Shown here: in pieces, positions 2,508-26,831 of the stretch
How positions within the stretch are numbered: the first letter of the stretch is position 1
Layout of the letters: every line of letters begins with the position of its first letter
NCBI GenBank assembly: GCA_016937155.1
Contig: JAFGWM010000040.1
Location: forward strand, 149,267-213,266
Direction: 5' to 3'
Source: Deltaproteobacteria bacterium
GTDB lineage: Bacteria > Myxococcota_A > Polyangia > HGW-17
DNA: 64,000 nucleotides
The notes under the pieces: model-generated
Told to the model about the DNA's origin: nothing
The model's database searches: none
Seen by the model: the letters and a program-made list of their open reading frames with translations, nothing else
Translations under genes and position numbers: made by a program

Positions 2508-2547
2508 TTAATTGATTATTAACACTTTTATCTTAATGGAGTTCGGT

Positions 2548-6582: not shown

Positions 6583-8145
6583 TTACCCTTTAAACAGATT
6601 CAGAAGATTATCAAATGATTCGGGAGACCAGAAAATTACGTTTGCCCCAGCACTCCTGATTTCTTTTATCAAGCCTTTCCATCTGTAATGGGCTTCTTTT
6701 TCAACGATGCTTCTTTTCAGTGTTTTATCTGTTTCGGGTGAATCATCAAGAATGAGGAAAAATACCTTTAAATTTCTTTTTAGTGCAATCCGCAGTCTTG
6801 GAATAATATCACCCGGTGCTGGAACCGGCTCCAATTCTGAAAAAATTATTATGTGCTGAGAATATTTTTTCAGGGCATCATCAAGGGCTTTTCCAAGACC
6901 GCTCTGATAATTATCTAAAACCGGTGGTTCGTATCCTGTAAGAATACTGATTTTTGTTAAAATTTCCTGAATCGGTTCAGAATGACTTACCAATAATTTC
7001 TCAATACCCCTGGGAGCAGCCAGTGAATTGTAGGCTGCTATCATAGTTTTTTTAAAATTATCCATCTGGTTTGGTGTTGTTGATTCTGGAGGATATATAC
7101 CGGTTCCAAAATTATAATTCAGATATCTCAGTAAATTCAGAATATTCAACTGATCAACATTTTCACAAAGCTCAAGTGTTTTATATCGGTATTCAGCCAG
7201 AGTATAAATCAACTTATTTACTTTTATCCGATTGAGTATGACCTCAATTTCTTTTCTGAAAACAGTAATACCAACCTCGTGTTCCATTTTTTGCAGTTTT
7301 TTTATTATTTGAGGTAGGACCGATACATAGTAATCAAAGGGAGATTCACCAGGTCTGCCTCTGAATACTGAAGGTGTGGTGTCAAAAAGTATCTGCCATT
7401 TTCCTTTTTTTTCCGGATAGGACAGTCTTATAACGGGTTTTTGACGTTTTAATGATGCTGTTCGAACTATAGCCTTTCGAGGATCACCTGTTTGGTAAAG
7501 TCTTAATTCTGCAAGATCTCCGTTATGTGTAGGTTGTGGAAATTTTTCATAAACTGGAATTTTTTCTAGTTTTTTAGTGAATACGGGATCAAGATTCTCT
7601 GGACTCACATTGAGACACATAGGTAAAACCAGATAAAACCTTCGAGGTCTGAAACCAAAAGGAGCAGAAATTATAATACTTAATCCATAAAAGAAAATAT
7701 TTCCGCTTCTGACTGGAACCAAAGTGATATTCATGGAAGTTTTGGAGTTTTTATTTAATTTTATAATGAAAGGATCTCTCTTTCTTATTCCACTGCATGT
7801 TCTTGTTTCAATACGTATTTTTCCAATACTTCTAGGTGTTGAATTTAGAAGATCGATTCTGACAGTAAATTCTTTTCCTGCTGCTATTGAAACCAAAGGA
7901 GGATAAGCCATTCCTTTCAGTGGTGATTTCTTAAAAAGGCTGTTTATTCTGTATTCCACAAGAATTACCCATGACATTATCAGGAAAGGGATTAGACCTA
8001 AAATGAAGAAATCTAACCTTAGGGTGACTGCTCCCAGTATCAAGAGTGCTGTTGGCGCAAGTGTAAAAAGATATGGAGAAGGATAATTGTAATTACTGGC
8101 TTTTACTTTTTCCGGGATCTGGATTATTTCAGAATGTTTGTCCAT
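6583..8145 (-). CDS. DUF58-family membrane protein (MoxR partner)
   Basis: 520 aa; N-terminal TM helices; DUF58-like motif GDLAELRLYQTGDPRKAI...LFDTTPS; immediately downstream of the MoxR ATPase gene on the same strand. Confidence 0.7.
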   Translation of the reverse strand: MDKHSEIIQIPEKVKASNYNYPSPYLFTLAPTALLILGAVTLRLDFFILGLIPFLIMSWVILVEYRINSLFKKSPLKGMAYPPLVSIAAGKEFTVRIDLLNSTPRSIGKIRIETRTCSGIRKRDPFIIKLNKNSKTSMNITLVPVRSGNIFFYGLSIIISAPFGFRPRRFYLVLPMCLNVSPENLDPVFTKKLEKIPVYEKFPQPTHNGDLAELRLYQTGDPRKAIVRTASLKRQKPVIRLSYPEKKGKWQILFDTTPSVFRGRPGESPFDYYVSVLPQIIKKLQKMEHEVGITVFRKEIEVILNRIKVNKLIYTLAEYRYKTLELCENVDQLNILNLLRYLNYNFGTGIYPPESTTPNQMDNFKKTMIAAYNSLAAPRGIEKLLVSHSEPIQEILTKISILTGYEPPVLDNYQSGLGKALDDALKKYSQHIIIFSELEPVPAPGDIIPRLRIALKRNLKVFFLILDDSPETDKTLKRSIVEKEAHYRWKGLIKEIRSAGANVIFWSPESFDNLLNLFKG

Positions 8146-8148
8146 TGT

Positions 8149-9147
8149 TTAAGCCAGAAGATTAAGTTTTTCCAAAGCATTATCTATTATTGAGGAGCTG
8201 GAGATTCCAGCCATTTCAGCCTCGTAAGAGAGTCTCAGTCTGTGGCTTAAGACATATGGTGCAAGGAACTTTACATCATCTGGTGTTCCATAATCCCTCC
8301 CGTACAAGGCGGCAATGGCTTTTGTAGCTCTTATAAGTGCAATACCTGCCCTTGGAGAGGCTCCAAGTTCGGTTTGAGGGTGGCGTCTGGTCCATCTGAT
8401 GATGGAAAGAATATATCTCATTAAAGATTCGCTAATAGTAACATTGTTGATAATATTTTGATATTCTACAATACTTTTACTTTCAAGAAGAGGCTGTGGA
8501 AGGGGTGGTTCAATCTGATGCTTTTTCATCATTTGAAATTCCTGTTCAGTATCCGGATACGAAAGTTTTATTCTGATTATGAATCGGTCAACAGCTGCTT
8601 CAGGAAGTGGAAAGGTACCTGCAAGTTCCTGAGGATTTTGTGTGGCGATAACAAAAAAAGGTTTTTCAAGGGAGAATGTATTGCCTTCTACAGTGACGGT
8701 TTTTTCCTCAAGTGCTTCAAGTAATGCAGCCTGTGTTTTTGCTGGAGAACGGTTAATTTCATCTCCCAGAAGAACCTGAGTAAAAACAGGTCCAGGAATA
8801 AACCGGCTTGATTGAAAATCCGCGCTTGGGACAACAGTTCCTGTAATATCAGTTGGCATGAGATCCGGAGTGAACTGAATTCTCTTGAAAGTACAACCTG
8901 TTAGGGCACTATAGAATTTTGCCAGAGTTGTTTTTGCAACCCCAGGAACACCTTCCAGCAGGATATGTCCCTGAGCAAGCAAAGCTGAACTCATTAAAAC
9001 AGGAATTTCACGAGGACCAAAAAAGTATTTATTAATATTTTCGTGTACCTCGTTGAATATTTCAGAAATTTTAGAAATATCAGTCATGATGAATACTTTA
9101 CTAACATATGATATCGAATTCAATGCAAAACCTTTTATATAGTTCAT
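8149..9147 (-). CDS. MoxR-family AAA+ ATPase
   Basis: Walker A GVPGVAKTT, Walker B region FVIATQNP; MoxR-like C-terminal region; true start may be the internal MTDISKISEIF (about 9087). Confidence 0.85.
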   Translation of the reverse strand: MNYIKGFALNSISYVSKVFIMTDISKISEIFNEVHENINKYFFGPREIPVLMSSALLAQGHILLEGVPGVAKTTLAKFYSALTGCTFKRIQFTPDLMPTDITGTVVPSADFQSSRFIPGPVFTQVLLGDEINRSPAKTQAALLEALEEKTVTVEGNTFSLEKPFFVIATQNPQELAGTFPLPEAAVDRFIIRIKLSYPDTEQEFQMMKKHQIEPPLPQPLLESKSIVEYQNIINNVTISESLMRYILSIIRWTRRHPQTELGASPRAGIALIRATKAIAALYGRDYGTPDDVKFLAPYVLSHRLRLSYEAEMAGISSSSIIDNALEKLNLLA

Positions 9148-11078: not shown

Positions 11079-11951
11079 ATGAAGAAGGCTGTGTTACTGA
11101 TTTGTCTCATTTTATCAATATGTTTAACTCCAGGGTGTGATGGAGAATCAACAACCGGCTCGAATAACACCATAAATAATGTGACTAATAATGCCACCAA
11201 TAATCTCTCGGATGGATCGGAAAATCTGGTAGTTGAATCTACGTATAACTCCACTCTGAAAACTGTAGCTGTGATGAATGCGTTTATCACTGATTCATCA
11301 AAAAAATCTTCCATTGATGACATAATACTGGATATCAATTTGACAGGATCTGAAAATGTAGAACTGATTATTGGAGCGATTACTTCAAGTGTTAATGACA
11401 CCTGTCTTTCAATAGATACATCTCTGGATGAATTAACATTTACAGCTGATTTTTCTGAAAACTGTCCAATTGATGAAGCTGGAATTAGTGTAGAAGGATC
11501 TGTAAGTGTATCTGTGGCCATTGATCAGGGAATTATAACTGTAGAGTTTGTTTTTACTGATTTTTCCGTTGAAAATCTTCCTGTGGTTAATGGAAACGCT
11601 TCTATAGCATGGGATGGAAATGGAAATTATGAAATAGATTTAGCCTTATCAGTTGGCGAAGCAGATATTTCATTTACTGGAACTGTAGTTTTCGATACTG
11701 GAGTATTTTTACTCAATGGGAGTGCTTCTTATAAAAAAGGTGTCGTGGAATATGATCTTTCAATAAGTGATCTGGCCTGGAATATTGATGATTGTTATCC
11801 CAGTGGAGGGGAAGTGGTTCTGGAAAATGGTATTCTGGATAAAACAGTGGTTTTTGATTCCAGCACACCATCAACAGGAGAAGCAACTTTAACTGTAAGA
11901 AATAGTTCAGAAACACTAAACCTCCCAGCATATGGTTCCTGCCCTCCATAA
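11079..11951 (+). CDS. hypothetical lipoprotein with Asn-rich post-lipobox linker
   Basis: lipobox LTPGC; linker NNTINNVTNNATNN; no recognisable catalytic motif. Confidence 0.5.
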   Translation: MKKAVLLICLILSICLTPGCDGESTTGSNNTINNVTNNATNNLSDGSENLVVESTYNSTLKTVAVMNAFITDSSKKSSIDDIILDINLTGSENVELIIGAITSSVNDTCLSIDTSLDELTFTADFSENCPIDEAGISVEGSVSVSVAIDQGIITVEFVFTDFSVENLPVVNGNASIAWDGNGNYEIDLALSVGEADISFTGTVVFDTGVFLLNGSASYKKGVVEYDLSISDLAWNIDDCYPSGGEVVLENGILDKTVVFDSSTPSTGEATLTVRNSSETLNLPAYGSCPP

Positions 11952-12344: not shown

Positions 12345-13145
12345 ATGTGGCCATTTTTAATGGAAGGATTACCAACTTACGGAATAATGCTGATAACTGG
12401 TATTTTTTTCGCAATAATCACATTTCGTATTATGGGTAAAAGTCTTTTTACAGACCATGAAACTATGTTTGATTATGCTCTTATTATGCTTTTGTCTGGT
12501 CTTTTTGGGGCAAGAATTCTTCATGTGGTGGTGAAGGGGGGAATATATTTCCAAAATCCTCTGAACATTTTAAGAATAAACGATGGGGGATTTACATTTT
12601 TAGGCGGAATACTTGGAGGTGCAGTGGTTTTAATAGTATTCCGTAAGAAAATTCCTGTTATGAGATTTGCGGATATTTCAGCTGTATCCGTGGCAATTGC
12701 CCATTTTTTTGGAAGAATGGGATGCAATTTTGCAGGTTGCTGCTGGGGAAAAGCTACCAGTTGTAAATTGTGTTCATTAAAATTCACAAGTAAAAGTGCA
12801 GTGGAAGAATTCTATAAAGGTACAGGTAATATTAATGGAATCAATCAATTCAGGTTGCCGGTACAGTTAATGGAAGCTGCTCTGGTGCTTGGAATATTCA
12901 TATTTCTCATAATCTACAATACAAAAAAAAGATTTGATGGTCAGTTGCTTGCTATTTACATGATTATTTATGGAGGAGGAAGGTTTTTGCTGGAGATCAT
13001 CAGAGATGACCCAGGTAGAGGATATCTGTTCAGATTGAATTTGTCCGGTGGTGATATGCAGTGCTGTTTTACTTCGCAGATAATCGGTTTGATAATGCTT
13101 GTTGGGGGAATTTTTATTATTAGACGAAAACTCAGGAAGCTTTAG
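12345..13145 (+). CDS. lgt: prolipoprotein diacylglyceryl transferase
   Basis: polytopic membrane protein; Lgt-like motifs FGRMGCNF and YGGGRFLLEIIRDDPG (Y-x3-RF-x2-E-x2-R-D); contains an unusual Cys-rich insert. Confidence 0.7.
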   Translation: MWPFLMEGLPTYGIMLITGIFFAIITFRIMGKSLFTDHETMFDYALIMLLSGLFGARILHVVVKGGIYFQNPLNILRINDGGFTFLGGILGGAVVLIVFRKKIPVMRFADISAVSVAIAHFFGRMGCNFAGCCWGKATSCKLCSLKFTSKSAVEEFYKGTGNINGINQFRLPVQLMEAALVLGIFIFLIIYNTKKRFDGQLLAIYMIIYGGGRFLLEIIRDDPGRGYLFRLNLSGGDMQCCFTSQIIGLIMLVGGIFIIRRKLRKL

Positions 13146-14352: not shown

Positions 14353-14679
14353 CTGCCATCAGTGAAACGTAGATGGCTTTTATAACATATATCTTAATTT
14401 CCCAGTTGCAAGGTTAGGGAAACCACTTTTAAAATTATCCCTTCTACATGAAAAGGATCACAAATGTCCAGTCAATAGGTAATTATCGAACAATTTTGAG
14501 TAAAATTTACCACTGCAGGGCAAAAATGTCATACTTTACGTCCATTTTATGTATCAGATGGTTAGCAACAGCCAAAAGTACAAATTTATTTCTTGTAATA
14601 TCATCAATGTAGGTACATATATAATTTACATGGCACAAAGAATGCACAATCCTATGGTTCATTCTGGAGGTTTGTTAAA

Positions 14680-16404
14680 ATGCGCAGAAAAATACTTATT
14701 GTTTCCTATCTTATTTTAGCTCTTTCAATTCTCGAAGGTTGTTCAGATGATGATTCTGCAAAGGATTCTTATTCCAATAATGTTGCTAATAATGCATACA
14801 ACAACACCGCAAACGGTGGTAATGTTAATGTTGGAGGCGTTCAGGATATTGGAGTTTTCAGGGAAATTATTGAAAGTGGAGGTATTCCTGCACCTTCAAC
14901 ATTTTCTGATAACGGCTTTTTCTCTGAGCATTATATAGAATATCCGTTCAGTGACTGTGGGGAAAATATCTGCCTCAACGGAATGATGGGAAGAGGAAAT
15001 TCGGTTATATCCAATGATTATATGAATGTAATTCAGATTGTTCTTAAGTCTTATCTTGATCCGGCAGATTTTTCACGGCCACCCACAGATTTCATACTTG
15101 TTATCGATGTTTCAGGATCCATGGCAGGTGATAAAATTACGAAGGTAAGAGAAGGTCTTCATCTCATGGTTGATTCTCTTAACTCAGATGACAGAATCTC
15201 TTTGATAGCGTTTTCTGATTTTATTCAGGAAAAACTGGATCTTACGTATGCCGATTCTCTGGAAAACAAAGAGTCAATGCATCTGGCTGTAAGTAATCTT
15301 GTTCCTGGGGGTTCGACTAATATTTACGGTGGATTGAGTGCTGGTTTTGCAAAAGCACAAATCGGTGTTGAACAGGAAAGACATGTAAGAGTTGTACTTC
15401 TTTCTGATGGAGTTCCAACTTCCGGTGAAGTGGATCCTAATGTCATTCAAAGTTTTGCTGAATCAAGAGCTACTGATAATGTTCAACTTACAAGTATAGG
15501 AGTCGGTTCAGATATTAACTATGATCTTATGAAAAATCTGGCTCTCGAAGGCGGAAATTTTTATTATATCGAGAACTATAGTGCCCTCAGTGATATTTTT
15601 GTTACAGAACTTGATTATTTTGCATTTCCTATAGCAAAAGATATTACCATAAGTGTTGTTTCATCCACTGGTATAAAAATAGGAGATTCTGTTGGATTTG
15701 GTGATGCCTGGATTCCCGAAGGTAATGGAGGAAGTGCACAATTCCCCAATCTGTATCTTGCTTCAAGAACAAGTAATGATATTGAAGATCCCTATTCCAG
15801 AAGAGGTGGTGGCAGTGCACTGTTTTTAAGGGTTACCCCAACAGGAGAGACAGTGGATCTTTCTAAGGCATATGTAAAATTGAGATATCTGGACCCGGAT
15901 ATGGATGATTATGTGGATCAACTTTTCACTCTCAGTGATCTGGGAATGGATGGCTCTATTCCAGTTGATGAATATTACAGTGAGTACGAAATGAAAAAGA
16001 GCTTTGCAATGCTGAATGCTTACCTCGCTTTTTATGAGACGGTTGTTTTAGCTGAGAACTGGATGATGGAGGAGAGTTTTGATTTGATAACAGGGGCTAT
16101 TGACTGGATGTACACAGTGAACATCGTTCTAGATGATGATGATATATCAGCAGATATAGTATTGATGGAACAACTTTCAAATAATATATATCCTTACACT
16201 TATAGCGGGGATGACTATTACTGCAACAATGGTGATTGTTATTATCCAGAGACAGATTATGAAAACGACAGAGAAGAAGTTCATTACGGATGTTCCCAGG
16301 GTAATGGAAACAGTTCACACTTCATTTCAATAATGCTTCTGACCCTGAGTTTTGCCTTATATTTCCGCAGAAAATATTCCTTCAAAAAAGTTAAAGATCT
16401 CTAA
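14680..16404 (+). CDS. von Willebrand factor A domain lipoprotein with C-terminal Cys/TM/basic anchor
   Basis: lipobox ILEGCSDD; Asn-rich linker NNVANNAYNNTANGGNVNVGG; vWA MIDAS context DFILVIDVSGSMAGDKI; C-terminus GCSQGNGNSS + hydrophobic helix + RRKYSFKKVKDL. Confidence 0.75.
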   Translation: MRRKILIVSYLILALSILEGCSDDDSAKDSYSNNVANNAYNNTANGGNVNVGGVQDIGVFREIIESGGIPAPSTFSDNGFFSEHYIEYPFSDCGENICLNGMMGRGNSVISNDYMNVIQIVLKSYLDPADFSRPPTDFILVIDVSGSMAGDKITKVREGLHLMVDSLNSDDRISLIAFSDFIQEKLDLTYADSLENKESMHLAVSNLVPGGSTNIYGGLSAGFAKAQIGVEQERHVRVVLLSDGVPTSGEVDPNVIQSFAESRATDNVQLTSIGVGSDINYDLMKNLALEGGNFYYIENYSALSDIFVTELDYFAFPIAKDITISVVSSTGIKIGDSVGFGDAWIPEGNGGSAQFPNLYLASRTSNDIEDPYSRRGGGSALFLRVTPTGETVDLSKAYVKLRYLDPDMDDYVDQLFTLSDLGMDGSIPVDEYYSEYEMKKSFAMLNAYLAFYETVVLAENWMMEESFDLITGAIDWMYTVNIVLDDDDISADIVLMEQLSNNIYPYTYSGDDYYCNNGDCYYPETDYENDREEVHYGCSQGNGNSSHFISIMLLTLSFALYFRRKYSFKKVKDL

Positions 16405-17657
16405 AGGGGAGATTTATTTATACCGGCAGCCCGGCATTCATTACAGATTTCTTCAGGATTTTCCCTTGTACCGAGTTTTATTCGCAGAAGATCTTCGGGT
16501 GACAAAGTAAGCATGAGTTTCGAACACTGGGAACATATGATCTGCTTTCCGCTGCTGTGCTCATGCATGAATTTTTCACAAACCGGACATGGTTTAACAG
16601 GTTCAACATCTGGCAGTGATCCAGTTTTTTTCAGTATCCTTAATTGTGTTTCTCTTTTCCATTTCCATTTTCCGGTACAACCGAACTTTTCATATTTACA
16701 ACTGATTTCTTTATCCTCGAAATCATTCAACTGGTCATAACAACTGTCACAAAGTCTTCGTGGAACACTCTGACCACTTTTTTTTCTGGCGAATATACTT
16801 CCCCGTTTTTCAGTCCAAGTTCCATTGCATTCAGGAATTCTACACTTGTGTGTTAAATCGGACAACTGTGAGTAAAGTTCACTGCACTCCGGACACATTC
16901 TTAGAGGGTATTTTTCTTCACTGTGACTTGTGAAAGAGTATTCCAGTTGTGAAAATCTTGTCCAAACCCAGGTGTTGCTGCACTCTTCGACCCTGCAGTT
17001 TAGTTCTATATCATTTAACTGATTCATTTTTTCACTACAGGAATCACAAAGTTTGCGAGGAGGGTTTTTCCTGCCCTTTTTTATATTTTCCAGTTGTGAA
17101 ATTCTTGTCCATGTCCATGTGTTATCACAACCCTTTATTTTGCATTTCTGGGCTTTATCCTCGAGTGTTTTAAAGGTGGCATAACAATCATTACACATTT
17201 TTTGAGGTGGAGTTGAAGAGTCACTCACCATCTGATCTCTTCCTGTCCAGATCCAGGTGTTTGAACAGCCGCTTATTTTGCAGGGAATATGTTGTGCTTC
17301 GATGGATTTTGAACTATCCATACAGGCTTGGCAGAGCCTTTTGGGAATTGACTTCCTTTTATTTATCTTATCAGCAACCTGTGCAATTCGGTTATATCTC
17401 CATGTGTTTGGACAATCGGAATTTGAACAGGGTTCTTCTCGATCCTGAAAATTCTGAAATAATTCAAAACAACGGTCACACATTTTAAGAGGAGGATCGC
17501 GATGTCCTTCACTCATTGCTTTGAGTTGATCCTCACCTGTCCATATCCAGGTATTATTGCATCCGCTTATTCTACAAGGAACTTTTTTATCCTTAAGTCC
17601 CTGCATCAGAGACCCAACATTTTTCATGACCAACTCTCCTTTATCCAGTTCTGACAT
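16401..17657 (-). CDS. cytoplasmic tandem zinc-ribbon repeat protein (7 repeats of C-x4-C-x-N-T-W-x-W ... C-x2-C)
   Basis: 418 aa, no signal peptide; repeated modules CRISGCNNTWIWT...CDRC, CSNSDCPNTWRY...CQAC, CKISGCSNTWIWT...CNDC, CKIKGCDNTWTWT...CDSC, CRVEECSNTWVWT...CPEC, CRIPECNGTWTEK...CDSC, CTGKWKWK...CPVC; no family I can name. Confidence 0.7.
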   Translation of the reverse strand: MSELDKGELVMKNVGSLMQGLKDKKVPCRISGCNNTWIWTGEDQLKAMSEGHRDPPLKMCDRCFELFQNFQDREEPCSNSDCPNTWRYNRIAQVADKINKRKSIPKRLCQACMDSSKSIEAQHIPCKISGCSNTWIWTGRDQMVSDSSTPPQKMCNDCYATFKTLEDKAQKCKIKGCDNTWTWTRISQLENIKKGRKNPPRKLCDSCSEKMNQLNDIELNCRVEECSNTWVWTRFSQLEYSFTSHSEEKYPLRMCPECSELYSQLSDLTHKCRIPECNGTWTEKRGSIFARKKSGQSVPRRLCDSCYDQLNDFEDKEISCKYEKFGCTGKWKWKRETQLRILKKTGSLPDVEPVKPCPVCEKFMHEHSSGKQIICSQCSKLMLTLSPEDLLRIKLGTRENPEEICNECRAAGINKSPL

Positions 17658-17745: not shown

Positions 17746-18819
17746 TCAGTACCCAATAAACCAGAGGGTGTATCCGAAAAGGAGAGCGGTAAACAGATTT
17801 ATCAATTTTACCATTATGAAATCTTTTCTTGAGTGTGCCAGAAGAGGAATGGCTCCATGACCATCCTGAGAAATGGATGAAGCAAGAAGAATACTGAAAG
17901 GAATCATTCCATTTGCAAACATTGTCACAAAAATCAGATGTGGCCCGGATTCGGGAATCAATCCTATTAATGCTGCCACCAGCATAATAAGAGCCGGATT
18001 GCCGGTTATCGTGGAATCAAGTCTATTGTGTAGAAGAATACTGATTACAACAAATGCTCCAAACGTCCAGAGAAAGATTTTTGGTGCGTGTTTTAAAATA
18101 AGATGTTCCCACAGGTGTTCTCTGATAAAATGTTCTTCGGCCATGGAAATTATAACGAAGGCCAGAGCAGGAACTACTGTGAAAATAGTACTTTGTATGC
18201 TCGGCGTCTCAGCAATGGATTTCCAGAGAAAATAAGATGATATAGCTGCGAGAGATGCCAGAATTATTAACAAGCGGATGTCTCCTGATTTTAAATTTGG
18301 AATAATTCTGGAGATTTTAAATTTTTTTTCCACAGTAGTCTGATGAATTTCAAAGTTATCTTCACACGGACAATCAGAAAATCTGTTTCCCATTACAAGG
18401 TCAGTGACAACGCCTGTGATGATACCAATAAGAAATAAAATGCCAGTGAGTAAAACTGCTTTTTCAGGAAACATTGCGAACATTACAAATGCTTCATCTC
18501 CGCTTGTGGCAATTGTTGCAGCAACAACCGCGCCCACTTTAAATATTTTATGTGAGTAGAGAGAAACAACTGCGAAAGTACCAAAGCATCCCGGAGTTGC
18601 ACCAAGTAGCGAACCGATAATGTGCTGTCCGAGGAGATATCTTTTAAGGGATGTCTGCCATTTTCCCATGGATGCCACATTAAGAAAATCAATAAAAAGC
18701 ATCATGGAAAGTACAAAAATACTAATTGCAAGTGCATGTACGAAAGAGTGTATAAAAGGATGAATCAAATTGTGAGACAAAAAACCCCCTTTCCGGGATT
18801 TTAGGTAATACCGATTCAT
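17746..18819 (-). CDS. polytopic integral membrane protein, internally duplicated transporter-like fold, unknown substrate
   Basis: 357 aa, about 10 predicted TM helices; paired motifs GATPGCFG...TSGDEAF and LIPESGPH...SQDGHG plus a DCPCED loop. Confidence 0.5.
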   Translation of the reverse strand: MNRYYLKSRKGGFLSHNLIHPFIHSFVHALAISIFVLSMMLFIDFLNVASMGKWQTSLKRYLLGQHIIGSLLGATPGCFGTFAVVSLYSHKIFKVGAVVAATIATSGDEAFVMFAMFPEKAVLLTGILFLIGIITGVVTDLVMGNRFSDCPCEDNFEIHQTTVEKKFKISRIIPNLKSGDIRLLIILASLAAISSYFLWKSIAETPSIQSTIFTVVPALAFVIISMAEEHFIREHLWEHLILKHAPKIFLWTFGAFVVISILLHNRLDSTITGNPALIMLVAALIGLIPESGPHLIFVTMFANGMIPFSILLASSISQDGHGAIPLLAHSRKDFIMVKLINLFTALLFGYTLWFIGY

Positions 18820-19151: not shown

Positions 19152-20057
19152 ATGGAGAATTTATCTAAATATTATCCGTTGATTATCAATCTTGCCATGA
19201 TTGCGCTTGTTAATTCAGGAGCAGGAATAGCTGCTGCTGATATTACAGCATATTTTTTGTACAGTGCTCCTGTTTATGAGATGGCAGCAAAAGGCATTTC
19301 AAAAAAATCATCCAAAAGGAAGAATGAAAAACGACTGTCCGGGGATATAAGAGCAATTTTGAAAAGAAATATGTTTTGTAGTACCTGTGAGCCCATTTCT
19401 CTTGATGACATTAAGGATGCCGGTGGAAAACAGCCTGAAAAGAAAGTTGACTCCCTCGAAGGTGCAACACTCCTGAGTACAATGCTTGCGGAAAGAGAGA
19501 TTTTTTCTCTTGCTGCCATTGCAGTGGAGAAACCTGAAGTGCGTACTATTCTTGTTGGTATTAACGATGAAGTGGGTGGAGCAAAAGTGATTATGATTGA
19601 GGATAAAAAGGTTACATTCCTTAAGGATGGTAAGGAAAAAATTCTTACCCTTACCGGAGAACCTAAGACAATTGCTTCTAAATCTTCAACCCCTGGAAAA
19701 CCGAAAACCAAGGATGAAGAATGGGCAAGCAAGATAAAGCAGATTGGACCAAATAAATACGAAGTGGAAAGATCTGTCGTAATGGATTTAATGCAGACAA
19801 TGGCTCAAAGAGGTCGTGGTGCAATGGTAATTCCTGATCCTAAAGGTGGATTCAGAGTTTCCTTTATACGATCCTACAGTATTTTCTATAAACTGGGTAT
19901 TAGATCAGGAGATGTGATCAAATCGGTAAATAATATCCAGCTTGATTCTTTTGATAAAGCTCTATTGATGTATACAAAACTGAAAAATGCAAATCACCTG
20001 ACTATTTCAATTAATCGTCGGGGTAAAACCGAAAATATGGATTTTTCAATCAGGTAA
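19152..20057 (+). CDS. gspC: type II secretion system protein C-like (N-terminal TM anchor, C-terminal PDZ-like domain)
   Basis: 301 aa; N-terminal hydrophobic helix; C-terminal GIRSGDVIKSVNNIQLDSFDKAL resembles a PDZ domain; directly precedes the secretin gene. Confidence 0.55.
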   Translation: MENLSKYYPLIINLAMIALVNSGAGIAAADITAYFLYSAPVYEMAAKGISKKSSKRKNEKRLSGDIRAILKRNMFCSTCEPISLDDIKDAGGKQPEKKVDSLEGATLLSTMLAEREIFSLAAIAVEKPEVRTILVGINDEVGGAKVIMIEDKKVTFLKDGKEKILTLTGEPKTIASKSSTPGKPKTKDEEWASKIKQIGPNKYEVERSVVMDLMQTMAQRGRGAMVIPDPKGGFRVSFIRSYSIFYKLGIRSGDVIKSVNNIQLDSFDKALLMYTKLKNANHLTISINRRGKTENMDFSIR

Positions 20058-20072
20058 CGAGAGGGATATACC

Positions 20073-22661
20073 TTGAGACTACTTAATTATTTAACAGTGT
20101 TTGTGGTAATACTTTCAACGTCGACCGGTTCTCTGGCCCAGCGGAAAGCCAGAGATTATAAGTACCGGAGAAACAACAGGGGGAATCTTGGCAAGCCTCA
20201 GGGTGGTGGTGGCGGTTCGGCCACTGCTGTTGGAAGTGCAAAGGATGATCCTAATTTCAATGAATGCAAGAACGTTCCCCAGTACCGGAGAATGAAGGTT
20301 TCACTTAAACCTGAAGCTAAACTTACTGAGTTGATAGGATGGATCAGTTCTCTCACATGCCGTAAATTTATTCTTACTAAAAACATCAGAGCTCAGGAAG
20401 TTACTATTTATTCACCCACCAAGGTAACTCCCAGAGAGTCGTACAGGGCATTTCTAAGTGCTCTGGAGGCAATGGGTCTTACAGTTCAGAAAAGCGGTTC
20501 ATATTATAAAATAATGGAATCAGAAAAAGCAAAGGGTCTTGTTCATCCTCTGGTTACTCCAGGTGGATATGTAGGAACAGGTGAAACTCTGGTTACCGCA
20601 ATGCTTAGAGTCAGATATGCAGAGCTTCAGGATGTGGCAGATGCTCTTGGTAAGTTTAAAAGTAAATATGGTGAAATCACTATTTATAAACCTACAAACC
20701 TTATTATTATCACAGATCTTGCAGATAGTATTACCAGGTTGCAGAGAATACTGAGACATCTTGATGTGGAAGGTGTCAACAATGAGAAAATCTGGGTTGT
20801 GAAGATTAAAAATGGTGATGCAGAGGAAATAGCAAATAAACTGAAAGAAGTTTTTGATACAGCAGGTGGCTCCTCAACATCAAAAACTGCAAAACCGACG
20901 AATTCCTACAGTAACAGAAGAAGTTCCAGAAGAAAACTGTACAAACCCGCAACTAGTACCCCTGCCTCAAAAGTCAATTCAGTGGGGAGTAACTCTTCAA
21001 TATCTAAAATAATTGCAGACGAAAGAACTAATTCACTTATTATTAAAGCTGATGACAGTTCTTATCTGGAAATACTTTCTCTTCTTGGAAAACTGGATGT
21101 AAAACTACCAGGTGGAGAAGAAAAAATTCATATTATTTATCTTGAAAATGCAGATGCAGAAGAAATGGCAGGCCTGTTAGGTTCACTTACTGGTTCTGGT
21201 GGCGGAAGTTCTTATAATTCCAGGAGAAATTCTACCTCAAGACGAGGTTCAACTTCCCGGCGTGGTTCAAGCAGTTCATACAGAGGATACAGTGGCTACG
21301 GATCATCATACGGACGTTCAAACAGTCAGCAGATCCAGGGAATTTTCAAGGGTCCCGTTCAGGTACAGCCTGACAGAAGCACAAACTCTCTGGTAATTAT
21401 GGCTTCGTCAAAAGATTTTCTATCCCTGAGAAGGATTATCAAGGAACTTGATAAACCCAGAAGACAGGTTTTCGTTGAAGTTACAATTATGGAAGTTAGT
21501 CTGGATAAAACCAGAAATCTCGGGTTATCTTTCCATGGTGGAAATACAATAGGAACCGGCGATGAACAATCCATACTTTTCGGAGGATCAATTTCAAATC
21601 AGGCAACCAACTCGATTATTATGAATCCATTGTCTCTTATGGGTTTTGCTGTTGGTTTGAGGGGACCTGAAATTGCGGACGCAGAGTCTCTTCTTGGAAT
21701 TCCAGGTCTTACATTTCCTTCATTTGGTGTGTTCTTTCAGGCACTTCAGACTAATAATGCAGTAAATGTTATTTCATCCCCGCATCTTCTTACCACAAAT
21801 AACGAAGAGGCTGAAATTACAGTGGGGGAGAATGTTCCTTTTCAGGCCGGAATTTCATCAATTTCCTCTCTGGCAAGTTCCTATGGTTCTTCAAGTTCTC
21901 TTGTGATGCCCAGTGTAGCCCCTATTCAGAGACAGGATGTTGCACTGAAGTTAAAAATAGTTCCCCATGTCAATAAGAGTAATTTTGTTCGCATGGAAGT
22001 TGAGCAGGAAATAAATGAGGTTAAATCCATCGATCAGATAGTTGGTCCGACTACATCCAAGAGAAAAGCTTCCACAGTTGTTGTGGTAAAGGATCAGCAG
22101 ACAGTTGTTATTGGTGGTCTGATGACGGAGAAATTCAAAAGTGCTGTTACCAAGGTACCACTTTTGGGGGATATTCCGCTTTTCGGGTATCTTTTTAAAT
22201 CCACAGTTAAAAATGTTGAAAAAACAAATCTTCTTATCTTCATAACTCCTTATATAATAAGAGATGAAAGTGATCTCAGAAGAATTTTTCAGGAAAAGAT
22301 AAAACAAAGAAAAGAGTTTATTGAAAAATTTGCAGCGTTTAAGGATCACGACATAGATCGAACCATAAATTACAAGCATAAATGCGGGATGTTTGAGGAG
22401 ATAAATCGTGAAGCCAAAAAAATGGAGGATGAGATCGAATTAAAGCGTAAAGCTATGGAGGAATACAAGGAAATAGATAATTCCGGTCCGGTTATTGTAA
22501 AAAATGCTGATGTTCTTAAGTTGCAGAAGGCACTTAAAAAAGTCAGAGATGATGATGAAAAGGAAACTGAAAAATCCGGAAAATTGGATAAAAAGGACAA
22601 CAAGTCAGAGTTATCCTCAAAGAATTCTAAAAAACCAGTAAAGACGGGAGAAAAAAAATAG
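20073..22661 (+). CDS. gspD: type II secretion system secretin GspD
   Basis: 862 aa; signal peptide; N-domains; secretin C-domain (VVIGGLMTE...VPLLGDIPLFGYLFK...LLIFITPYII); unusual RS/G-rich insert and long K/E-rich C-terminal tail. Confidence 0.9.
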   Translation: MRLLNYLTVFVVILSTSTGSLAQRKARDYKYRRNNRGNLGKPQGGGGGSATAVGSAKDDPNFNECKNVPQYRRMKVSLKPEAKLTELIGWISSLTCRKFILTKNIRAQEVTIYSPTKVTPRESYRAFLSALEAMGLTVQKSGSYYKIMESEKAKGLVHPLVTPGGYVGTGETLVTAMLRVRYAELQDVADALGKFKSKYGEITIYKPTNLIIITDLADSITRLQRILRHLDVEGVNNEKIWVVKIKNGDAEEIANKLKEVFDTAGGSSTSKTAKPTNSYSNRRSSRRKLYKPATSTPASKVNSVGSNSSISKIIADERTNSLIIKADDSSYLEILSLLGKLDVKLPGGEEKIHIIYLENADAEEMAGLLGSLTGSGGGSSYNSRRNSTSRRGSTSRRGSSSSYRGYSGYGSSYGRSNSQQIQGIFKGPVQVQPDRSTNSLVIMASSKDFLSLRRIIKELDKPRRQVFVEVTIMEVSLDKTRNLGLSFHGGNTIGTGDEQSILFGGSISNQATNSIIMNPLSLMGFAVGLRGPEIADAESLLGIPGLTFPSFGVFFQALQTNNAVNVISSPHLLTTNNEEAEITVGENVPFQAGISSISSLASSYGSSSSLVMPSVAPIQRQDVALKLKIVPHVNKSNFVRMEVEQEINEVKSIDQIVGPTTSKRKASTVVVVKDQQTVVIGGLMTEKFKSAVTKVPLLGDIPLFGYLFKSTVKNVEKTNLLIFITPYIIRDESDLRRIFQEKIKQRKEFIEKFAAFKDHDIDRTINYKHKCGMFEEINREAKKMEDEIELKRKAMEEYKEIDNSGPVIVKNADVLKLQKALKKVRDDDEKETEKSGKLDKKDNKSELSSKNSKKPVKTGEKK

Positions 22662-24410
22662 ATGTCCACTCATCGTCTACTTGGTGAAATTCTGATTAAA
22701 AATATGGGGATAAGTGCGACTGATATTCATAATGCTCTTGAAAAACAGGTGGAAGAAGAATCCAGAATTGGAGAAATACTTGTTAAATCAAAGATTCTTA
22801 TGGAAAAAGATGTTCTGAAAGCACTTGCTATCCAGCAGCATATTTTATTCCGTGAAATGGATCCTAAACCTGAAGATGTGGAACTTGATCTTATTGAGCA
22901 GATACCACTGAATTATGCAAAACAAAACAGAATTACACCCCTCTGGCACAATGATGACGGAACAGTTGAAATTGCATTAAGTGATCCGGGTGTTTACTGG
23001 GCAATCGATGATGTGGCTTCAAAACTGCGGAAAAAATTAAGTATATCACTAATGGAATCTCAAAGGATTCTGGAACTTATCAACAAAGCTTATACAAGAA
23101 GAGCCACAAGTGTTGATCTTGGTGATGAAAACGAAGATTTTGCAGATGGTGATGTTGAGGATCTTGCTGATAATATAGATATTAAAGATGAAGCACCTAT
23201 CATCAGATGGGTAAATGCTATCATATACAATGCTGCAAAGGAGCGGGCTAGTGATATTCATATAGAGCCCGGTGACAGAGAAGTTGTAGTAAGGTACAGA
23301 ATTGATGGTGTGTTGTATGAAACAAAACATGCCAATAAAAATTATCTGAGTGCGATTATTGCGAGAGTTAAAATTATGTCTGGTCTTGATATTGCGGAAA
23401 AGCGCCTTCCTCAGGATGGTAGAATTCGCAGAAAAATAGCGGGCAGGGATATTGATTTTCGTGTTGCAACTATTCCAACAGCAAGAGGTGAACGTATAAC
23501 AATCCGACTGCTTGATCAAAGCAGTATTCTTCTCGGTCTTGGGGATATCGGTTTTGCTCCAAGAGAACTTGATCTTATGGAAGATCTTATTGAGAGACCC
23601 CATGGAATTATTCTTGTTACCGGGCCTACCGGTAGTGGTAAAACTACAACTCTTTACGCATCTCTGAATAAAATAAACTCACCGGAACTTAATATTCTAA
23701 CAATTGAAGATCCCGTGGAATATCAACTTGAGGGAATTTCTCAGGTTCAGGTTAATCCAAAAATTCATCTGACTTTTGCAGCTGGATTGAGATCTTTTTT
23801 ACGTCATGATCCTGATGTTATTATGGTTGGTGAGATTCGTGATCTTGAAACTGCAGAAATTGCTATTCAGGCATCACTGACAGGTCATCTTGTTTTGAGT
23901 ACTGTTCATACAAATGACAGCGCTGGGGCACTTACGAGGCTTGTGGACATGGGAGTTGAGCCGTTTCTTGTTGCATCCTCTCTAAATGGAATTCTTGCCC
24001 AGAGACTGGTAAGAAGACTCTGTCCGGTTTGTAAGGAAGAATATGAGCCAACTCCTGAGGAAATTGATGATGTTGGACTTAACCCTGATGAATTTTTCAG
24101 TGGGATGATAAAGGGTTATCCGGTAAAAGCTGGAACAAGAGTTCCTGGCCCGGGTAAACTGTTCAGAGCCAAGGGTTGTCCACAATGTCTTAATACAGGA
24201 TACCAGGGACGAACAGGGATATATGAGCTCCTCATGATGGATGATGACATTCGTGCCATGTCAATGAAGAAGATAGATGCGAACCAGATTAAAAAACTGG
24301 GTGTTTCCAAAGGTCTGAAAACATTGCGTCAGGATGGGGCTTACAAAGCAATAAGCGGGATTACAAGTCTCAGTGAAGTGATGCTTGTAACCGCGGAAGA
24401 TATAGCTTAG
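22662..24410 (+). CDS. gspE: type II secretion ATPase GspE
   Basis: Walker A GPTGSGKTTT, Asp box, His box, C-terminal tetracysteine CPVC...CPQC; 582 aa. Confidence 0.95.
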   Translation: MSTHRLLGEILIKNMGISATDIHNALEKQVEEESRIGEILVKSKILMEKDVLKALAIQQHILFREMDPKPEDVELDLIEQIPLNYAKQNRITPLWHNDDGTVEIALSDPGVYWAIDDVASKLRKKLSISLMESQRILELINKAYTRRATSVDLGDENEDFADGDVEDLADNIDIKDEAPIIRWVNAIIYNAAKERASDIHIEPGDREVVVRYRIDGVLYETKHANKNYLSAIIARVKIMSGLDIAEKRLPQDGRIRRKIAGRDIDFRVATIPTARGERITIRLLDQSSILLGLGDIGFAPRELDLMEDLIERPHGIILVTGPTGSGKTTTLYASLNKINSPELNILTIEDPVEYQLEGISQVQVNPKIHLTFAAGLRSFLRHDPDVIMVGEIRDLETAEIAIQASLTGHLVLSTVHTNDSAGALTRLVDMGVEPFLVASSLNGILAQRLVRRLCPVCKEEYEPTPEEIDDVGLNPDEFFSGMIKGYPVKAGTRVPGPGKLFRAKGCPQCLNTGYQGRTGIYELLMMDDDIRAMSMKKIDANQIKKLGVSKGLKTLRQDGAYKAISGITSLSEVMLVTAEDIA

Positions 24411-24418
24411 GTGTAAAG

Positions 24419-25651: not shown

Positions 25652-25661
25652 GAGAGAAACC

Positions 25662-26084
25662 ATGAAACGTGAAAATGTTACAGCAAGAGCATTAAGAAAT
25701 CTGAAATCCCAGAGAGGTATGACCCTGATAGAGATTATGATCGTTATTGTTATTCTCGGTCTTATCATTGGTGCAATTACCTTTGGTGTGATGCCCAGAT
25801 TTAAAAAGGCAAAGAAAAAGACTACTCAACTCAAATTGAATAATATTGCAAGTATCCTTACAGAGAGTGCCGAAGAACCAGAGCACAGCGGAAAAGAAGG
25901 AAACCAGATCCTTGAAGCTCTGGTTACTGATGGAACAATTAAAAAGTCTGATCTTAAGGATGCCTGGGGACAGGAAGTCAAGGCTGAAAAAGCTGGAGAA
26001 GGTTTTTGTGTCAGAAGTGCCGGACCTGACAAGAGTTTTAACACAGCTGATGATGTTCTCAGCAATGACTGTAATGAGAACTGA
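25662..26084 (+). CDS. gspG: major pseudopilin GspG (type IV pilin-like N-terminus)
   Basis: prepilin signature ...QRG/MTLIEIMIVIVILGLIIGAI with Glu at +5; 140 aa; unusually long 19-aa leader. Confidence 0.85.
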   Translation: MKRENVTARALRNLKSQRGMTLIEIMIVIVILGLIIGAITFGVMPRFKKAKKKTTQLKLNNIASILTESAEEPEHSGKEGNQILEALVTDGTIKKSDLKDAWGQEVKAEKAGEGFCVRSAGPDKSFNTADDVLSNDCNEN

Positions 26085-26089
26085 TTAAA

Positions 26090-26830: not shown

Positions 26831-26831
26831 C

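What the first reader, a model, noticed from the sequence alone, without database searches (positions are those of the whole stretch)
14680..16404. vWA-domain protein with both an N-terminal lipobox and a C-terminal Cys/TM/basic sorting-like tail
The protein carries a lipoprotein signal (ILEGCSDD) and ends with GCSQGNGNSS-FISIMLLTLSFALYF-RRKYSFKKVKDL, the same tripartite architecture as the subtilase tail 10 kb away. Two independent instances in one window argue that the tail is a genuine sorting signal, not chance. Dual anchoring (N-terminal lipid plus C-terminal helix) is unusual and may mean the C-terminal part is cleaved off during surface sorting.
Basis: partly seen in the sequence, partly recalled or inferred. 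Interest (0 to 1): 0.55.

Follow-up and report, generated by a model that had tools for sequence, protein, structure and literature searches.

The report
Myxobacterial surface-sorting tail on adhesin lipoprotein
The gene encodes a metal-dependent adhesion (vWA) protein from an uncultured myxobacterium-like organism whose C-terminal Cys/membrane-helix/basic tail is a diverged copy of the already known MYXO-CTERM surface-sorting signal, so the feature is real but largely ordinary.

Summary
ORF 14680..16404(+) encodes a 574-aa protein (GenBank MBN2724124.1) with a signal peptide ending in a lipobox-like LEGC, a vWA domain with an intact MIDAS site, and the tail GCSQGNGNSS / HFISIMLLTLSFALYF / RRKYSFKKVKDL. 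The tail is not chance. Thirty-six of the 95 best-scoring homologues carry it, and in the 33 tails aligned the only invariant residue is the Cys, 21-25 residues before the basic cluster in 31 of them. Eighteen of those 33 tails hit NCBIfam TIGR03901.2 (MYXO-CTERM) at E<=1e-3. The subtilase tail 10 kb away has the canonical GCGC motif, and 11 of the 19 aligned tails (the window's own among the non-hitters) hit the same model. The window's own two tails fall below the curated cut-off, being Lys-rich in a 38% GC genome. An HMM of homologue tails still ranks them first and second of 435 ORF ends. MYXO-CTERM is a known signal: myxosortase MrtX cleaves it and the type II secretion system displays the protein. 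A full T2SS operon and lgt lie in the window. The one less ordinary point is that the lipobox and MYXO-CTERM are co-conserved across this family, so the protein may be lipid-anchored at both ends. Verdict: new member of a known kind, low to moderate interest.

The parts
14666..14670 (+). Shine-Dalgarno sequence GGAGG, 9 nt upstream of the ATG
   Evidence: Read directly from the sequence
14680..16404 (+). Complete ORF for the 574-aa vWA protein (GenBank MBN2724124.1, annotated only as 'VWA domain-containing protein')
14680..14742 (+). Signal peptide MRRKILIVSYLILALSILEG plus Cys21. The lipobox-like L-E-G-C is at 14731..14742 and the Cys21 codon TGT at 14740..14742
   Evidence: Sequence. Cys21 is at least 90% conserved in 89 homologues. 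Most homologues match the PS51257-type lipobox pattern, but this protein does not because of Glu at -2. Residues 20-42 are predicted disordered, like a lipoprotein tether
15088..15600 (+). vWA domain (residues 137-307) with MIDAS residues D143, S145, S147 (15106..15120), T213 and D243
   Evidence: Pfam PF00092, E 2.3e-18. The MIDAS residues are invariant in 89 homologues. Foldseek matches vWA proteins ArnB, ITIH1 and 4fx5
15634..16200 (+). Beta-sandwich (residues 319-417) and three-helix bundle (residues 436-507) following the vWA domain
   Evidence: AlphaFold2 model, mean pLDDT 86.5. The vWA + beta-sandwich architecture resembles ArnB, ITIH1 and the Sec23/24 trunk
16282..16317 (+). Signature motif of the sorting tail, H-Y-G-C538-S-Q-G-N-G-N-S-S. 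The Cys538 codon is at 16291..16293
   Evidence: Cys538 is the only invariant column in 33 homologue tails. The local consensus is [YH]-[GA]-C-S-[ATS]-[GS]-G. hhalign against the subtilase-tail profile gives probability 96.3% over these columns
16318..16365 (+). Hydrophobic transmembrane segment HFISIMLLTLSFALYF (residues 547-562), with no acidic, basic (K/R) or Pro residues
   Evidence: Sequence. AlphaFold2 helix at 546-572
16366..16404 (+). Basic cytoplasmic end RRKYSFKKVKDL (2 Arg, 4 Lys) plus the stop codon
   Evidence: Sequence. Homologues have 3-7 Arg here; the low-GC relatives use Lys
4494..4628 (-). Second instance: the MYXO-CTERM-like tail of the S8 subtilase (ORF 4491..6566, MBN2724115.1), N-G-C-G-C651-SAAGKNSQNMP / SVFLLLILFFLLF / HSRLKYLNALRGNKLK
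   Evidence: Weak direct hit to TIGR03901.2 (11.2 bits, cut-off 20). Of the 19 aligned tails (the window's own plus 18 homologues), 11 hit TIGR03901.2 at E<=1e-3 and the window's own is not among them. It is the top hit of the homologue-tail HMM
19152..33145 (+). Type II secretion system operon, the pathway reported to carry MYXO-CTERM proteins to the surface: PDZ protein (GspC-like), secretin GspD, ATPase GspE, GspF, pseudopilins (N_methyl motif, T2SSJ, T2SSK), and a weakly PilM/FtsA-like protein at the GspL position, below the Pfam cut-offs
   Evidence: Pfam hits. The role of the T2SS is taken from PMC11980579. Linkage to the vWA gene is kept only in the closest relatives, so it is context, not proof
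12345..13145 (+). lgt, prolipoprotein diacylglyceryl transferase. It is needed for the N-terminal lipobox and is the published candidate for lipidating the MYXO-CTERM Cys
   Evidence: Pfam PF01790, E 1.1e-45. The hypothesis comes from PMC11980579

Best explanation
The protein is a MYXO-CTERM-tagged cell-surface adhesin of an uncultured low-GC member of the Myxococcota. The proposed pathway follows; which steps are shown, published or inferred is marked in the For line. The precursor is exported by Sec through its N-terminal signal peptide. The C-terminal helix (547-562) with its basic end (563-574) holds it in the inner membrane with Cys538 at the periplasmic face. Cys538 is modified, probably lipidated. 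A CPBP-family intramembrane glutamic endopeptidase (a myxosortase of the MrtX/MrtC/MrtP type) then cuts off the helix. The type II secretion system encoded 3 kb downstream moves the folded protein to the cell surface. There the vWA domain binds a ligand through its metal-ion-dependent adhesion site. The N-terminal Cys21 is most likely also lipidated by Lgt and processed by LspA, so the mature protein may be tethered at both ends by disordered linkers. The subtilase at 4491..6566 uses the same C-terminal route but has an ordinary signal peptide.
For: SHOWN HERE. The ORF, its RBS, the vWA domain with a fully conserved MIDAS, and the tripartite tail are all present. Thirty-six of the 95 best-scoring homologues carry the tail, all from MAGs that either have no name in the search output or are labelled Myxococcota or 'Deltaproteobacteria'. 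Cys538 is the only invariant tail residue in the 33 tails aligned, and the Cys-to-basic-cluster spacing is 21-25 residues in 31 of 33. Eighteen of 33 tails hit TIGR03901.2 at E<=1e-3 (best 6.5e-9) and 27 of 33 at E<=10; every other C-terminal sorting model scores far worse. Subtilase homologues carry GCGC + helix + RRRR, and 11 of the 19 aligned tails hit TIGR03901.2. The two tail profiles align over the Cys motif (hhalign probability 96.3%). A homologue-tail HMM that excludes the window's own tails ranks those two tails first and second of 435 ORF ends. A genome scan found 389 relatives; of the 80 kept, nearly all come from MAGs labelled Myxococcota, one of its groups (Haliangiales/Kofleriaceae, Polyangia, Nannocystaceae, Bradymonadales) or old-style 'Deltaproteobacteria', with a few labelled only 'Proteobacteria', 'bacterium' or 'Bdellovibrionales'. 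A T2SS operon and lgt are in the window. Nearly all homologues, tailed or not, have a canonical lipobox at the position of Cys21. PUBLISHED. MYXO-CTERM is defined as an invariant Cys, a helix free of charge and Pro, and an Arg cluster; the curated HMM misses lineage-specific forms (Haft preprint). MrtX cleaves MYXO-CTERM in a Cys-dependent way, also in E. coli (PMC11980579). T2SS-dependent surface localisation is what that paper reports from Sah et al. 2020, which could not be read here. INFERRED. Lipidation of Cys538, cleavage in this organism, lipidation of Cys21, and the adhesin role.
Against: The window's own vWA tail gives no hit to TIGR03901.2 even at E<=10, and the subtilase tail reaches only 11.2 bits against a cut-off of 20. 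The basic end is Lys-rich and unusually long (12 residues). No CPBP/myxosortase gene is present in the 64-kb window or in 86 related loci, and the rest of the source genome could not be read. The lipobox has Glu at -2, which the PS51257 pattern forbids. Linkage to the T2SS operon is not kept outside the closest relatives. No experimental data exist for this protein or lineage.
Confidence: 0.78

Rival explanations
1. The C-terminal tail is MYXO-CTERM, but the N-terminal signal of this particular protein is not lipidated. Glu at -2 spoils the lipobox, so the signal is cut by signal peptidase I or stays uncleaved. The mature protein would then be anchored only at its C-terminus, like typical MYXO-CTERM proteins such as TraA.
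For: LEGC fails the PS51257-type lipobox pattern, while most of its homologues pass. The other lipoproteins in the window have S, V, A, M, P or W at -2, never an acidic residue. Myxobacterial lipobox-containing metallo-beta-lactamases were not processed as lipoproteins when expressed in E. coli, where type I cleavage operated (PMC13616975).
Against: Cys21 sits at exactly the position of the canonical lipobox Cys, which is conserved in at least 90% of 89 homologues. Gly at -1 and Leu at -3 are retained. Cys21 is followed by a 22-residue disordered, Asn/Asp/Ser-rich tether typical of lipoproteins. lgt is present.
Confidence: 0.3
2. The C-terminal helix is a permanent membrane anchor that is never cleaved. 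The protein would be a bitopic or doubly tethered inner-membrane protein displaying its vWA domain in the periplasm.
For: No myxosortase gene was found in the sequence available. The tail scores below the curated MYXO-CTERM cut-off.
Against: A plain anchor does not need an invariant Cys at a fixed distance from the helix, yet that Cys is the only invariant tail residue across the 33 tails aligned, whose helices are otherwise free to vary. Aligned tails of the same protein family hit MYXO-CTERM strongly. Related family members dispense with the helix entirely and end in PEPWPxD, so membrane spanning is not needed for the protein's core function.
Confidence: 0.12
3. [quoted passage not shown]
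For: Some homologue tails give weak hits to these models: PEP-CTERM in 10 of 33 (best E 0.0039), JDVT-CTERM in 9 (0.0023), GlyGly-CTERM in 7 (0.082) and Synerg-CTERM in 3 (1.4). All share the tripartite design.
Against: MYXO-CTERM is by far the best match (27 of 33, best E 6.5e-9). The diagnostic features listed by Haft are absent: the DP motif before the helix (JDVT), the GP directly after the Cys (CGP) and the invariant Pro inside the helix (Synerg). There is no PEP motif. The family is found in MAGs labelled Myxococcota or old-style 'Deltaproteobacteria'.
Confidence: 0.04
4. Chance: a hydrophobic, basic C-terminus that happens to follow a Cys, with no function.
For: The element is short and of low complexity, and the curated HMM does not detect it in this protein.
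Against: It is conserved in 36 homologues down to about 33% overall identity, with an invariant Cys and constant spacing. The homologue-tail HMM gives E-values of 5.9e-5 and 4.6e-6 for the two window tails, against at least 0.18 for all other ORF ends.
Confidence: 0.01

Closest known systems
MYXO-CTERM proteins of Myxococcota (NCBIfam TIGR03901.2), prototype TraA of Myxococcus xanthus, processed by myxosortase MrtX
   Same: C-terminal tripartite signal: a short motif with an invariant Cys (G/A before it), a helix free of charged and Pro residues, and a basic cytoplasmic cluster. N-terminal Sec signal. Cargo is an adhesin or a hydrolase. A T2SS is present. Myxococcota lineage. Tails of other members of the same protein families hit the model at up to E 6.5e-9.
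   Different: The window's own tails fall below the curated cut-off. The basic cluster is Lys-rich (RRKYSFKKVKDL) and longer than usual, in a 38% GC genome. The vWA tail has a single Cys (YGCS) rather than GCGC. An N-terminal lipobox is co-conserved, which the two MYXO-CTERM papers read here do not mention. The cognate myxosortase has not been identified.
GlyGly-CTERM / rhombosortase system (e.g. VesB of Vibrio cholerae)
   Same: A tripartite C-terminal tail is removed by an intramembrane protease. The protein then stays on the cell surface and depends on the T2SS.
   Different: The signature (Gly-Gly, no invariant Cys) and the protease family (rhomboid rather than CPBP) both differ. Homologue tails hit that model only weakly (best E 0.082).
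Pullulanase PulA of Klebsiella oxytoca, a T2SS-exported surface lipoprotein
   Same: It has an N-terminal lipobox and is carried to the cell surface by a T2SS. Guo et al. 2025 cite it as a parallel.
   Different: PulA has no C-terminal sorting tail and a different enzymatic cargo.
vWA + beta-sandwich proteins: archaeal ArnB (8s05, 5a8j), inter-alpha-inhibitor heavy chain ITIH1 (6fpy), Catenulispora vWA protein 4fx5, and distantly the E. coli YfbK family
   Same: The fold of the body is shared: a vWA domain with MIDAS packed against a beta-sandwich (Foldseek E 1e-19 to 1e-15). The most distant sequence hits carry the YfbK-type domains PF12450 and PF12034.
   Different: Sequence identity is only 14-16%. 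The YfbK-specific Pfam domains do not hit this protein. None of these proteins has a MYXO-CTERM tail.

Membership tests
MYXO-CTERM sorting domain (TIGR03901.2) | Located at the extreme C-terminus with a tripartite layout (motif, transmembrane helix, basic cluster) | tested here: met
   Residues 535-574 are the last 40 of 574. The helix is 547-562 and the basic end 563-574
MYXO-CTERM sorting domain (TIGR03901.2) | [quoted passage not shown] | tested here: met
   Cys538 is the only invariant column in 33 homologue tails. The subtilase has GCGC, and its second Cys is invariant in 19 tails
MYXO-CTERM sorting domain (TIGR03901.2) | Transmembrane segment free of charged and Pro residues (Haft's description) | tested here: met
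   HFISIMLLTLSFALYF has no D, E, K, R or P (read from the sequence)
MYXO-CTERM sorting domain (TIGR03901.2) | Arg-rich cluster at the C-terminus | tested here: inconclusive
   The end RRKYSFKKVKDL has 2 Arg and 4 Lys over 12 residues, whereas homologues have 3-7 Arg over 3-10 residues. It is basic but not Arg-rich, consistent with the low GC content (0.37)
MYXO-CTERM sorting domain (TIGR03901.2) | Score at or above the curated HMM cut-off (20 bits) | tested here: not met
   The vWA tail gives no hit at E<=10 and the subtilase tail scores 11.2 bits. Eighteen of the 33 aligned vWA tails and 11 of the 19 aligned subtilase tails do hit at E<=1e-3. Haft states that the single HMM misses lineage-specific forms and that curator review is needed
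MYXO-CTERM sorting domain (TIGR03901.2) | Host belongs to Myxococcota (including Bradymonadales) | tested here: inconclusive
   The source MAG is labelled 'Deltaproteobacteria bacterium'. The closest homologues come from MAGs labelled Myxococcota, and nearly all of the 80 loci kept from 389 genome hits carry a Myxococcota-group or old-style 'Deltaproteobacteria' label. The subtilase carries the myxobacterial Cys-rich repeat TIGR02232. No marker-gene phylogeny was done
MYXO-CTERM sorting domain (TIGR03901.2) | Cognate myxosortase (CPBP family; NF040593, NF040914 or NF040674) in the same genome | not testable with these tools
   No EExxxR...HxxxN membrane ORF was found in the window or in 86 related loci. 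The rest of the 254-kb contig and of the MAG could not be fetched, and the MAG is not among the genome representatives
MYXO-CTERM sorting domain (TIGR03901.2) | Cys-dependent C-terminal cleavage and T2SS-dependent surface display | not testable with these tools
   This needs experiments. Only the presence of a T2SS operon at 19152..33145 is shown
Bacterial lipoprotein (lipobox / signal peptidase II substrate) | Lipobox [LVI][ASTVI][GAS]C at the end of the hydrophobic region (PROSITE PS51257-type pattern) | tested here: not met
   LEGC has Glu at -2 and fails the pattern. Most homologues pass at the aligned Cys, and Cys21 is at least 90% conserved. Membership is therefore inferred from the family, not from this sequence alone
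Bacterial lipoprotein (lipobox / signal peptidase II substrate) | Lgt and LspA present in the genome | tested here: inconclusive
   lgt is present at 12345..13145 (PF01790, E 1e-45). lspA was not seen in the window
vWA domain with MIDAS | DxSxS...T...D metal-ion-dependent adhesion site in a Rossmann-like vWA fold | tested here: met
   PF00092, E 2.3e-18. D143, S145, S147, T213 and D243 are invariant in 89 homologues. The fold was confirmed
YfbK family (PF12450 + VWA + PF12034) | N-terminal vWF_A (PF12450) and C-terminal YfbK_C (PF12034) domains | tested here: not met
   Neither domain hits at E<=0.1. They occur only in the most distant hits, P0105-P0120
Marine proteobacterial sortase target (TIGR03788) | Full-length equivalog score of at least 551 bits, and an LPXTG-type tail | tested here: not met
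   The score is 60.8 bits over the vWA domain only. There is no LPXTG motif
[quoted passage not shown] | DP before the helix (JDVT), invariant Pro inside the helix (Synerg), GP right after the Cys (CGP) | tested here: not met
   None of these motifs is present in the tail or in the homologue consensus. HMM hits are weak

The most novel reading that the evidence does not exclude
The protein, and the whole clade of at least 36 tailed homologues, would be lipid-anchored at both termini: acylated at Cys21 by the Lgt/LspA route, and lipidated at Cys538 and then cleaved by myxosortase. That would make it a natural doubly tethered, T2SS-displayed adhesin. The C-terminal motif [GA]-C-S mirrors the N-terminal lipobox G-C-S. 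Such proteins would therefore be natural test substrates for the open hypothesis that Lgt itself lipidates the MYXO-CTERM cysteine despite the inverted topology.
Probability: 0.3. Interest if true: 0.5.

Novelty: new member of a known kind. Interest (0 to 1): 0.27.

Why it matters
It shows that the MYXO-CTERM sorting signal extends into uncultured low-GC relatives of the myxobacteria in a Lys-rich form that the curated NCBIfam model does not detect. GenBank names these two proteins only 'VWA domain-containing' and 'DUF4215 domain-containing', so surface proteomes of such MAGs are under-annotated. It also identifies a conserved protein family in which a lipoprotein signal and MYXO-CTERM coexist. 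That family could be used to test how the MYXO-CTERM cysteine is modified, the step still unknown in the published model. Beyond that, the finding is an expected instance of a described system.

Tried and rejected
1. Fetching more of the source contig failed. The look-up of encoding contigs had no record for MBN2724124.1 or for the window-end C25 peptidase, so the myxosortase could not be sought in the genome.

2. A motif scan (EExxxR...H...HxxxN/D in multi-helix ORFs) of the window and of 1.43 Mb of related loci found no CPBP protease. The only window match lies inside the ArsP_2 permease at 17746..18819 and is judged fortuitous, since Pfam sees only PF11449.

4. The idea that the vWA gene is functionally linked to the adjacent T2SS operon or to lgt was rejected. 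The order lgt-clpX-vWA-Zn-ribbon-ArsP_2-T2SS is kept only in the closest relatives (62% and 53% identity). It is absent around more distant tailed or untailed homologues.

5. The best NCBIfam hit, 'marine proteobacterial sortase target', is only vWA-domain similarity at 60.8 bits against a cut-off of 551.

6. Sah et al. 2020 (PMC7237302) is not held in the library. Its conclusions are cited only through Guo et al. 2025.

7. Full-text searches of the library (two read directly, plus two library searches) found no paper describing the lipobox + MYXO-CTERM combination. This is absence in the library searched, not proof of novelty.

8. My first regular-expression tail finder was leaky and missed the window's own tails. 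It was replaced by an HMM.
Full report
**Observation.** The ORF 14680..16404(+) is real and complete at 574 aa. It is preceded by GGAGG at 14666..14670, 9 nt upstream of the ATG. It is identical to GenBank MBN2724124.1, 'VWA domain-containing protein' from a MAG labelled Deltaproteobacteria bacterium, on a 254,359-bp contig that also carries the subtilase MBN2724115.1. Pfam places a vWA domain at residues 137-307 (E 2.3e-18). The N-terminus is MRRKILIVSYLILALSILEG-C21-SDDD. The C-terminus is VHYG-C538-SQGNGNSS / HFISIMLLTLSFALYF / RRKYSFKKVKDL. The subtilase ORF 4491..6566(-) has an S8 domain and four TIGR02232/DUF4215 Cys-rich repeats. It ends in NGCGCSAAGKNSQNMP / SVFLLLILFFLLF / HSRLKYLNALRGNKLK. 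A crude scan of the reading frames of at least 100 aa, in all six frames, found this kind of end only in these two proteins; the polytopic Lgt also ends in a membrane helix plus basic residues.

**Is it more than chance?** Yes.
- The homologue search returned a family of similar-length vWA proteins whose source labels, where given, are Myxococcota or 'Deltaproteobacteria'.
- Thirty-six of the 95 best-scoring homologues, 62% down to about 33% identical overall, carry a tail of the same design.
- In an alignment of 33 tails the single invariant column is the Cys. The local consensus is [YH]-[GA]-C-S-[ATS]-[GS]-G, and the Cys lies 21-25 residues before the basic cluster in 31 of 33.
- The subtilase homologues likewise end in G-C-G-C, a helix and RRRR.
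- I built an HMM from 49 homologue tails, leaving out both window tails and the closest vWA homologue. It ranks the subtilase tail first (21.9 bits, E 4.6e-6) and the vWA tail second (18.3 bits, E 5.9e-5) among 435 ORF C-termini of the window. The next best score is 7.3 bits, for Lgt.
- The two tail profiles align with each other over the Cys motif (hhalign probability 96.3%).

**What it is.** The tail is a MYXO-CTERM sorting signal in a diverged, low-GC form.
- Scanned one by one against NCBIfam, 18 of the 33 vWA-family tails hit TIGR03901.2 (MYXO-CTERM) at E<=1e-3 (best 6.5e-9), and 27 at E<=10.
- PEP-CTERM, JDVT-CTERM, GlyGly-CTERM, LPXTG and Synerg-CTERM models score orders of magnitude worse.
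- Eleven of the 19 aligned subtilase tails hit TIGR03901.2 at E<=1e-3 (best 8.6e-10). The window's own tail is one of the 19 and does not hit.
- The window's own tails are sub-threshold. The subtilase tail scores 11.2 bits against a cut-off of 20, and the vWA tail is not reported even at E<=10.
- The likely reason is composition. The window is 35-42% GC. The cytoplasmic ends use Lys where the model expects Arg: 2 R and 4 K here, against 3-7 R and no K in the high-GC relatives.
[quoted passage not shown] All of these hold here.
- The diagnostic motifs of the other Cys-containing signals are absent: DP for JDVT, GP for CGP, and a Pro inside the helix for Synerg.

**The body of the protein.**
- An alignment of 89 homologues shows invariant D143, S145, S147, T213 and D243, a complete MIDAS. 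It also shows two invariant Cys (C93, C98) and a Cys21 conserved in at least 90%.
- The AlphaFold2 model has mean pLDDT 86.5. It shows a signal helix at 2-19, a disordered stretch at 20-42, a vWA domain packed on a beta-sandwich (to about residue 417), a three-helix bundle at 436-507, a disordered Tyr/Asp/Cys-rich linker at 519-547, and a terminal helix at 546-572.
- Foldseek finds vWA + beta-sandwich proteins: ArnB, inter-alpha-inhibitor heavy chain 1 and Catenulispora 4fx5 (E 1e-19 to 1e-15, 14-16% identity).
- This fits a ligand-binding surface adhesin. That is the class, together with hydrolases, that the M. xanthus MYXO-CTERM proteins are predicted to fill.

**How it most likely works.** Guo, Haft and Wall (mBio 2025, PMC11980579) showed that the CPBP-family intramembrane protease MrtX cleaves the MYXO-CTERM of TraA, that this needs the conserved cysteines, and that it also occurs in E. 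coli. They propose the following order: Sec export, anchoring in the inner membrane by the C-terminal helix, lipidation of the Cys (Lgt is the leading candidate), cleavage by MrtX, then T2SS-dependent transfer to the cell surface. The T2SS dependence they take from Sah et al. 2020, which I could not read.
- By homology I assign the same route to both window proteins.
- The window supplies two of the required parts. One is a T2SS operon at 19152..33145, with secretin, GspE, GspF and pseudopilin/T2SSJ/T2SSK domains above the Pfam cut-offs, plus weaker sub-threshold PDZ (GspC-like) and PilM/FtsA-like (GspL position) matches. The other is lgt at 12345..13145.
- What is shown here is the homology of the signal and the presence of those parts.
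- What is inferred is cleavage, the modification of Cys538 and surface exposure.

**The N-terminus.** Nearly every family member, tailed or not, has a PROSITE-type lipobox at the aligned Cys, so the family is ancestrally a lipoprotein.
- The tailed clade keeps both signals, which argues that both are used.
- In the window protein itself the lipobox is LEGC, and Glu at -2 fails the pattern. None of the other ten or so lipoproteins in the window has an acidic residue there.
- I rate lipidation of Cys21 as likely but not secure, at about 0.7.
- If both ends are processed, the mature protein would carry a lipid at each end, each on a flexible linker of about 20 residues.
- A few other ORFs in related loci also combine a lipobox with a MYXO-CTERM-like tail: L086, L082, L055 and L083. 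The combination is therefore a recurrent minority.
- The two MYXO-CTERM papers I could read do not mention it, and two library searches found no description of it.

**What could not be tested.** The defining partner, a myxosortase gene, could not be sought.
- It is not in the window or in 1.43 Mb of related loci.
- The rest of the MAG was not retrievable, and the MAG is not among the genome representatives.
- The literature reports mrtX orthologues in all known Myxococcota genera and MrtP in Bradymonadales, so I expect one. That remains an expectation.

**Context that turned out not to matter.** The gene order lgt-clpX-vWA-Zn-ribbon protein-ArsP_2-T2SS is kept in the closest relatives, at 62% and 53% identity. 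It is not kept around more distant homologues. The proximity to the T2SS is therefore lineage history rather than a functional operon.

**Comparison and novelty.** The feature works like, and by homology belongs to, the MYXO-CTERM class.
- It fails one formal criterion (the curated HMM cut-off), and one criterion is untestable here (the cognate protease).
- It differs from the prototype in its Lys-rich, longer basic end, its single-Cys YGCS motif and the co-conserved lipobox.
- It is a new member of a known kind. It is of practical interest for annotating MAGs, and of modest mechanistic interest as a natural substrate carrying both a lipobox Cys and a MYXO-CTERM Cys.

**Verdict.** Interest 0.27.

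Noticed in passing
Homologues P0038-P0092; no window coordinates: Family members without the MYXO-CTERM tail (Polyangium, Paraliomyxa and Nannocystaceae among others) end instead in a conserved P-(E/N/D)-P-W-P-x-D C-terminus. This may be an alternative C-terminal signal or interaction motif.
   Followed up: no
window 16401..17657 (-): A 418-aa cytoplasmic protein built of about 8 repeats of CxxC...NTWxW...CxxC zinc-ribbon-like units. It gives only a marginal FYVE hit (28.1 bits against a cut-off of 27.8, E 2e-6). It is convergent with the vWA gene and overlaps its stop codon by 4 nt. The neighbourhood is kept only in the closest relatives.
   Followed up: partly
window 6583..9147 (-), upstream of the subtilase 4491..6566: A MoxR-type AAA+ ATPase (AAA_3, E 9e-55) and a 520-aa membrane protein with no Pfam hit lie co-directionally just upstream of the MYXO-CTERM subtilase. 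MoxR ATPases usually partner vWA proteins, and the vWA gene lies 5.5 kb away on the other strand.
   Followed up: partly
window 96..872(-), 1101..2507(+), 2512..3324(+), 11079..11951(+), 33195..34430(-), 34434..34934(-), 40531..42186(+), 55562..56632(+), 61790..63532(+): The window is unusually dense in predicted lipoproteins with xxGC/xxSC lipoboxes. They include a C25 (gingipain-like) peptidase, a CAP-domain protein and several Cys-rich proteins. None of them has a MYXO-CTERM tail.
   Followed up: partly
alignments A1 and A3; window 16288..16296 and 14737..14745: In the vWA-family tails the residue before the invariant MYXO-CTERM Cys is G or A in 30 of 33, and the residue after it is Ser in 26 of 33. 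This [GA]-C-S pattern resembles positions -1 to +2 of a lipobox and matches the protein's own N-terminal G-C-S. It is in line with, but does not prove, the published idea that Lgt modifies this Cys.
   Followed up: partly
L086 (+, about 8872, 291 aa); L082 (+, about 11560, 473 aa); L055 (+, 598 and 411 aa); L083 (+, 312 aa): Other, unrelated ORFs in Myxococcota MAG loci also combine a canonical lipobox with a MYXO-CTERM-like tail, so the dual arrangement is not confined to the vWA family.
   Followed up: partly
window 35325..40452 (+): An ORF that reads like an aconitase family protein is followed by a pair that read like the two subunits of ATP-citrate lyase. This is my reading of the translations, with no family search. 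The gene set suggests a reverse TCA cycle or a citrate-cleavage route to acetyl-CoA and may be worth a look in this lineage.
   Followed up: no
window 4562..5017 (-), inside the subtilase gene: Four nearly identical 37-38-aa Cys-rich repeats (EVCGNSI(V/I)DINExCDDGNTLSGDGCSEDCKST; TIGR02232, E 1.6e-34). They imply a recent tandem DNA duplication just upstream of the sorting tail.
   Followed up: partly
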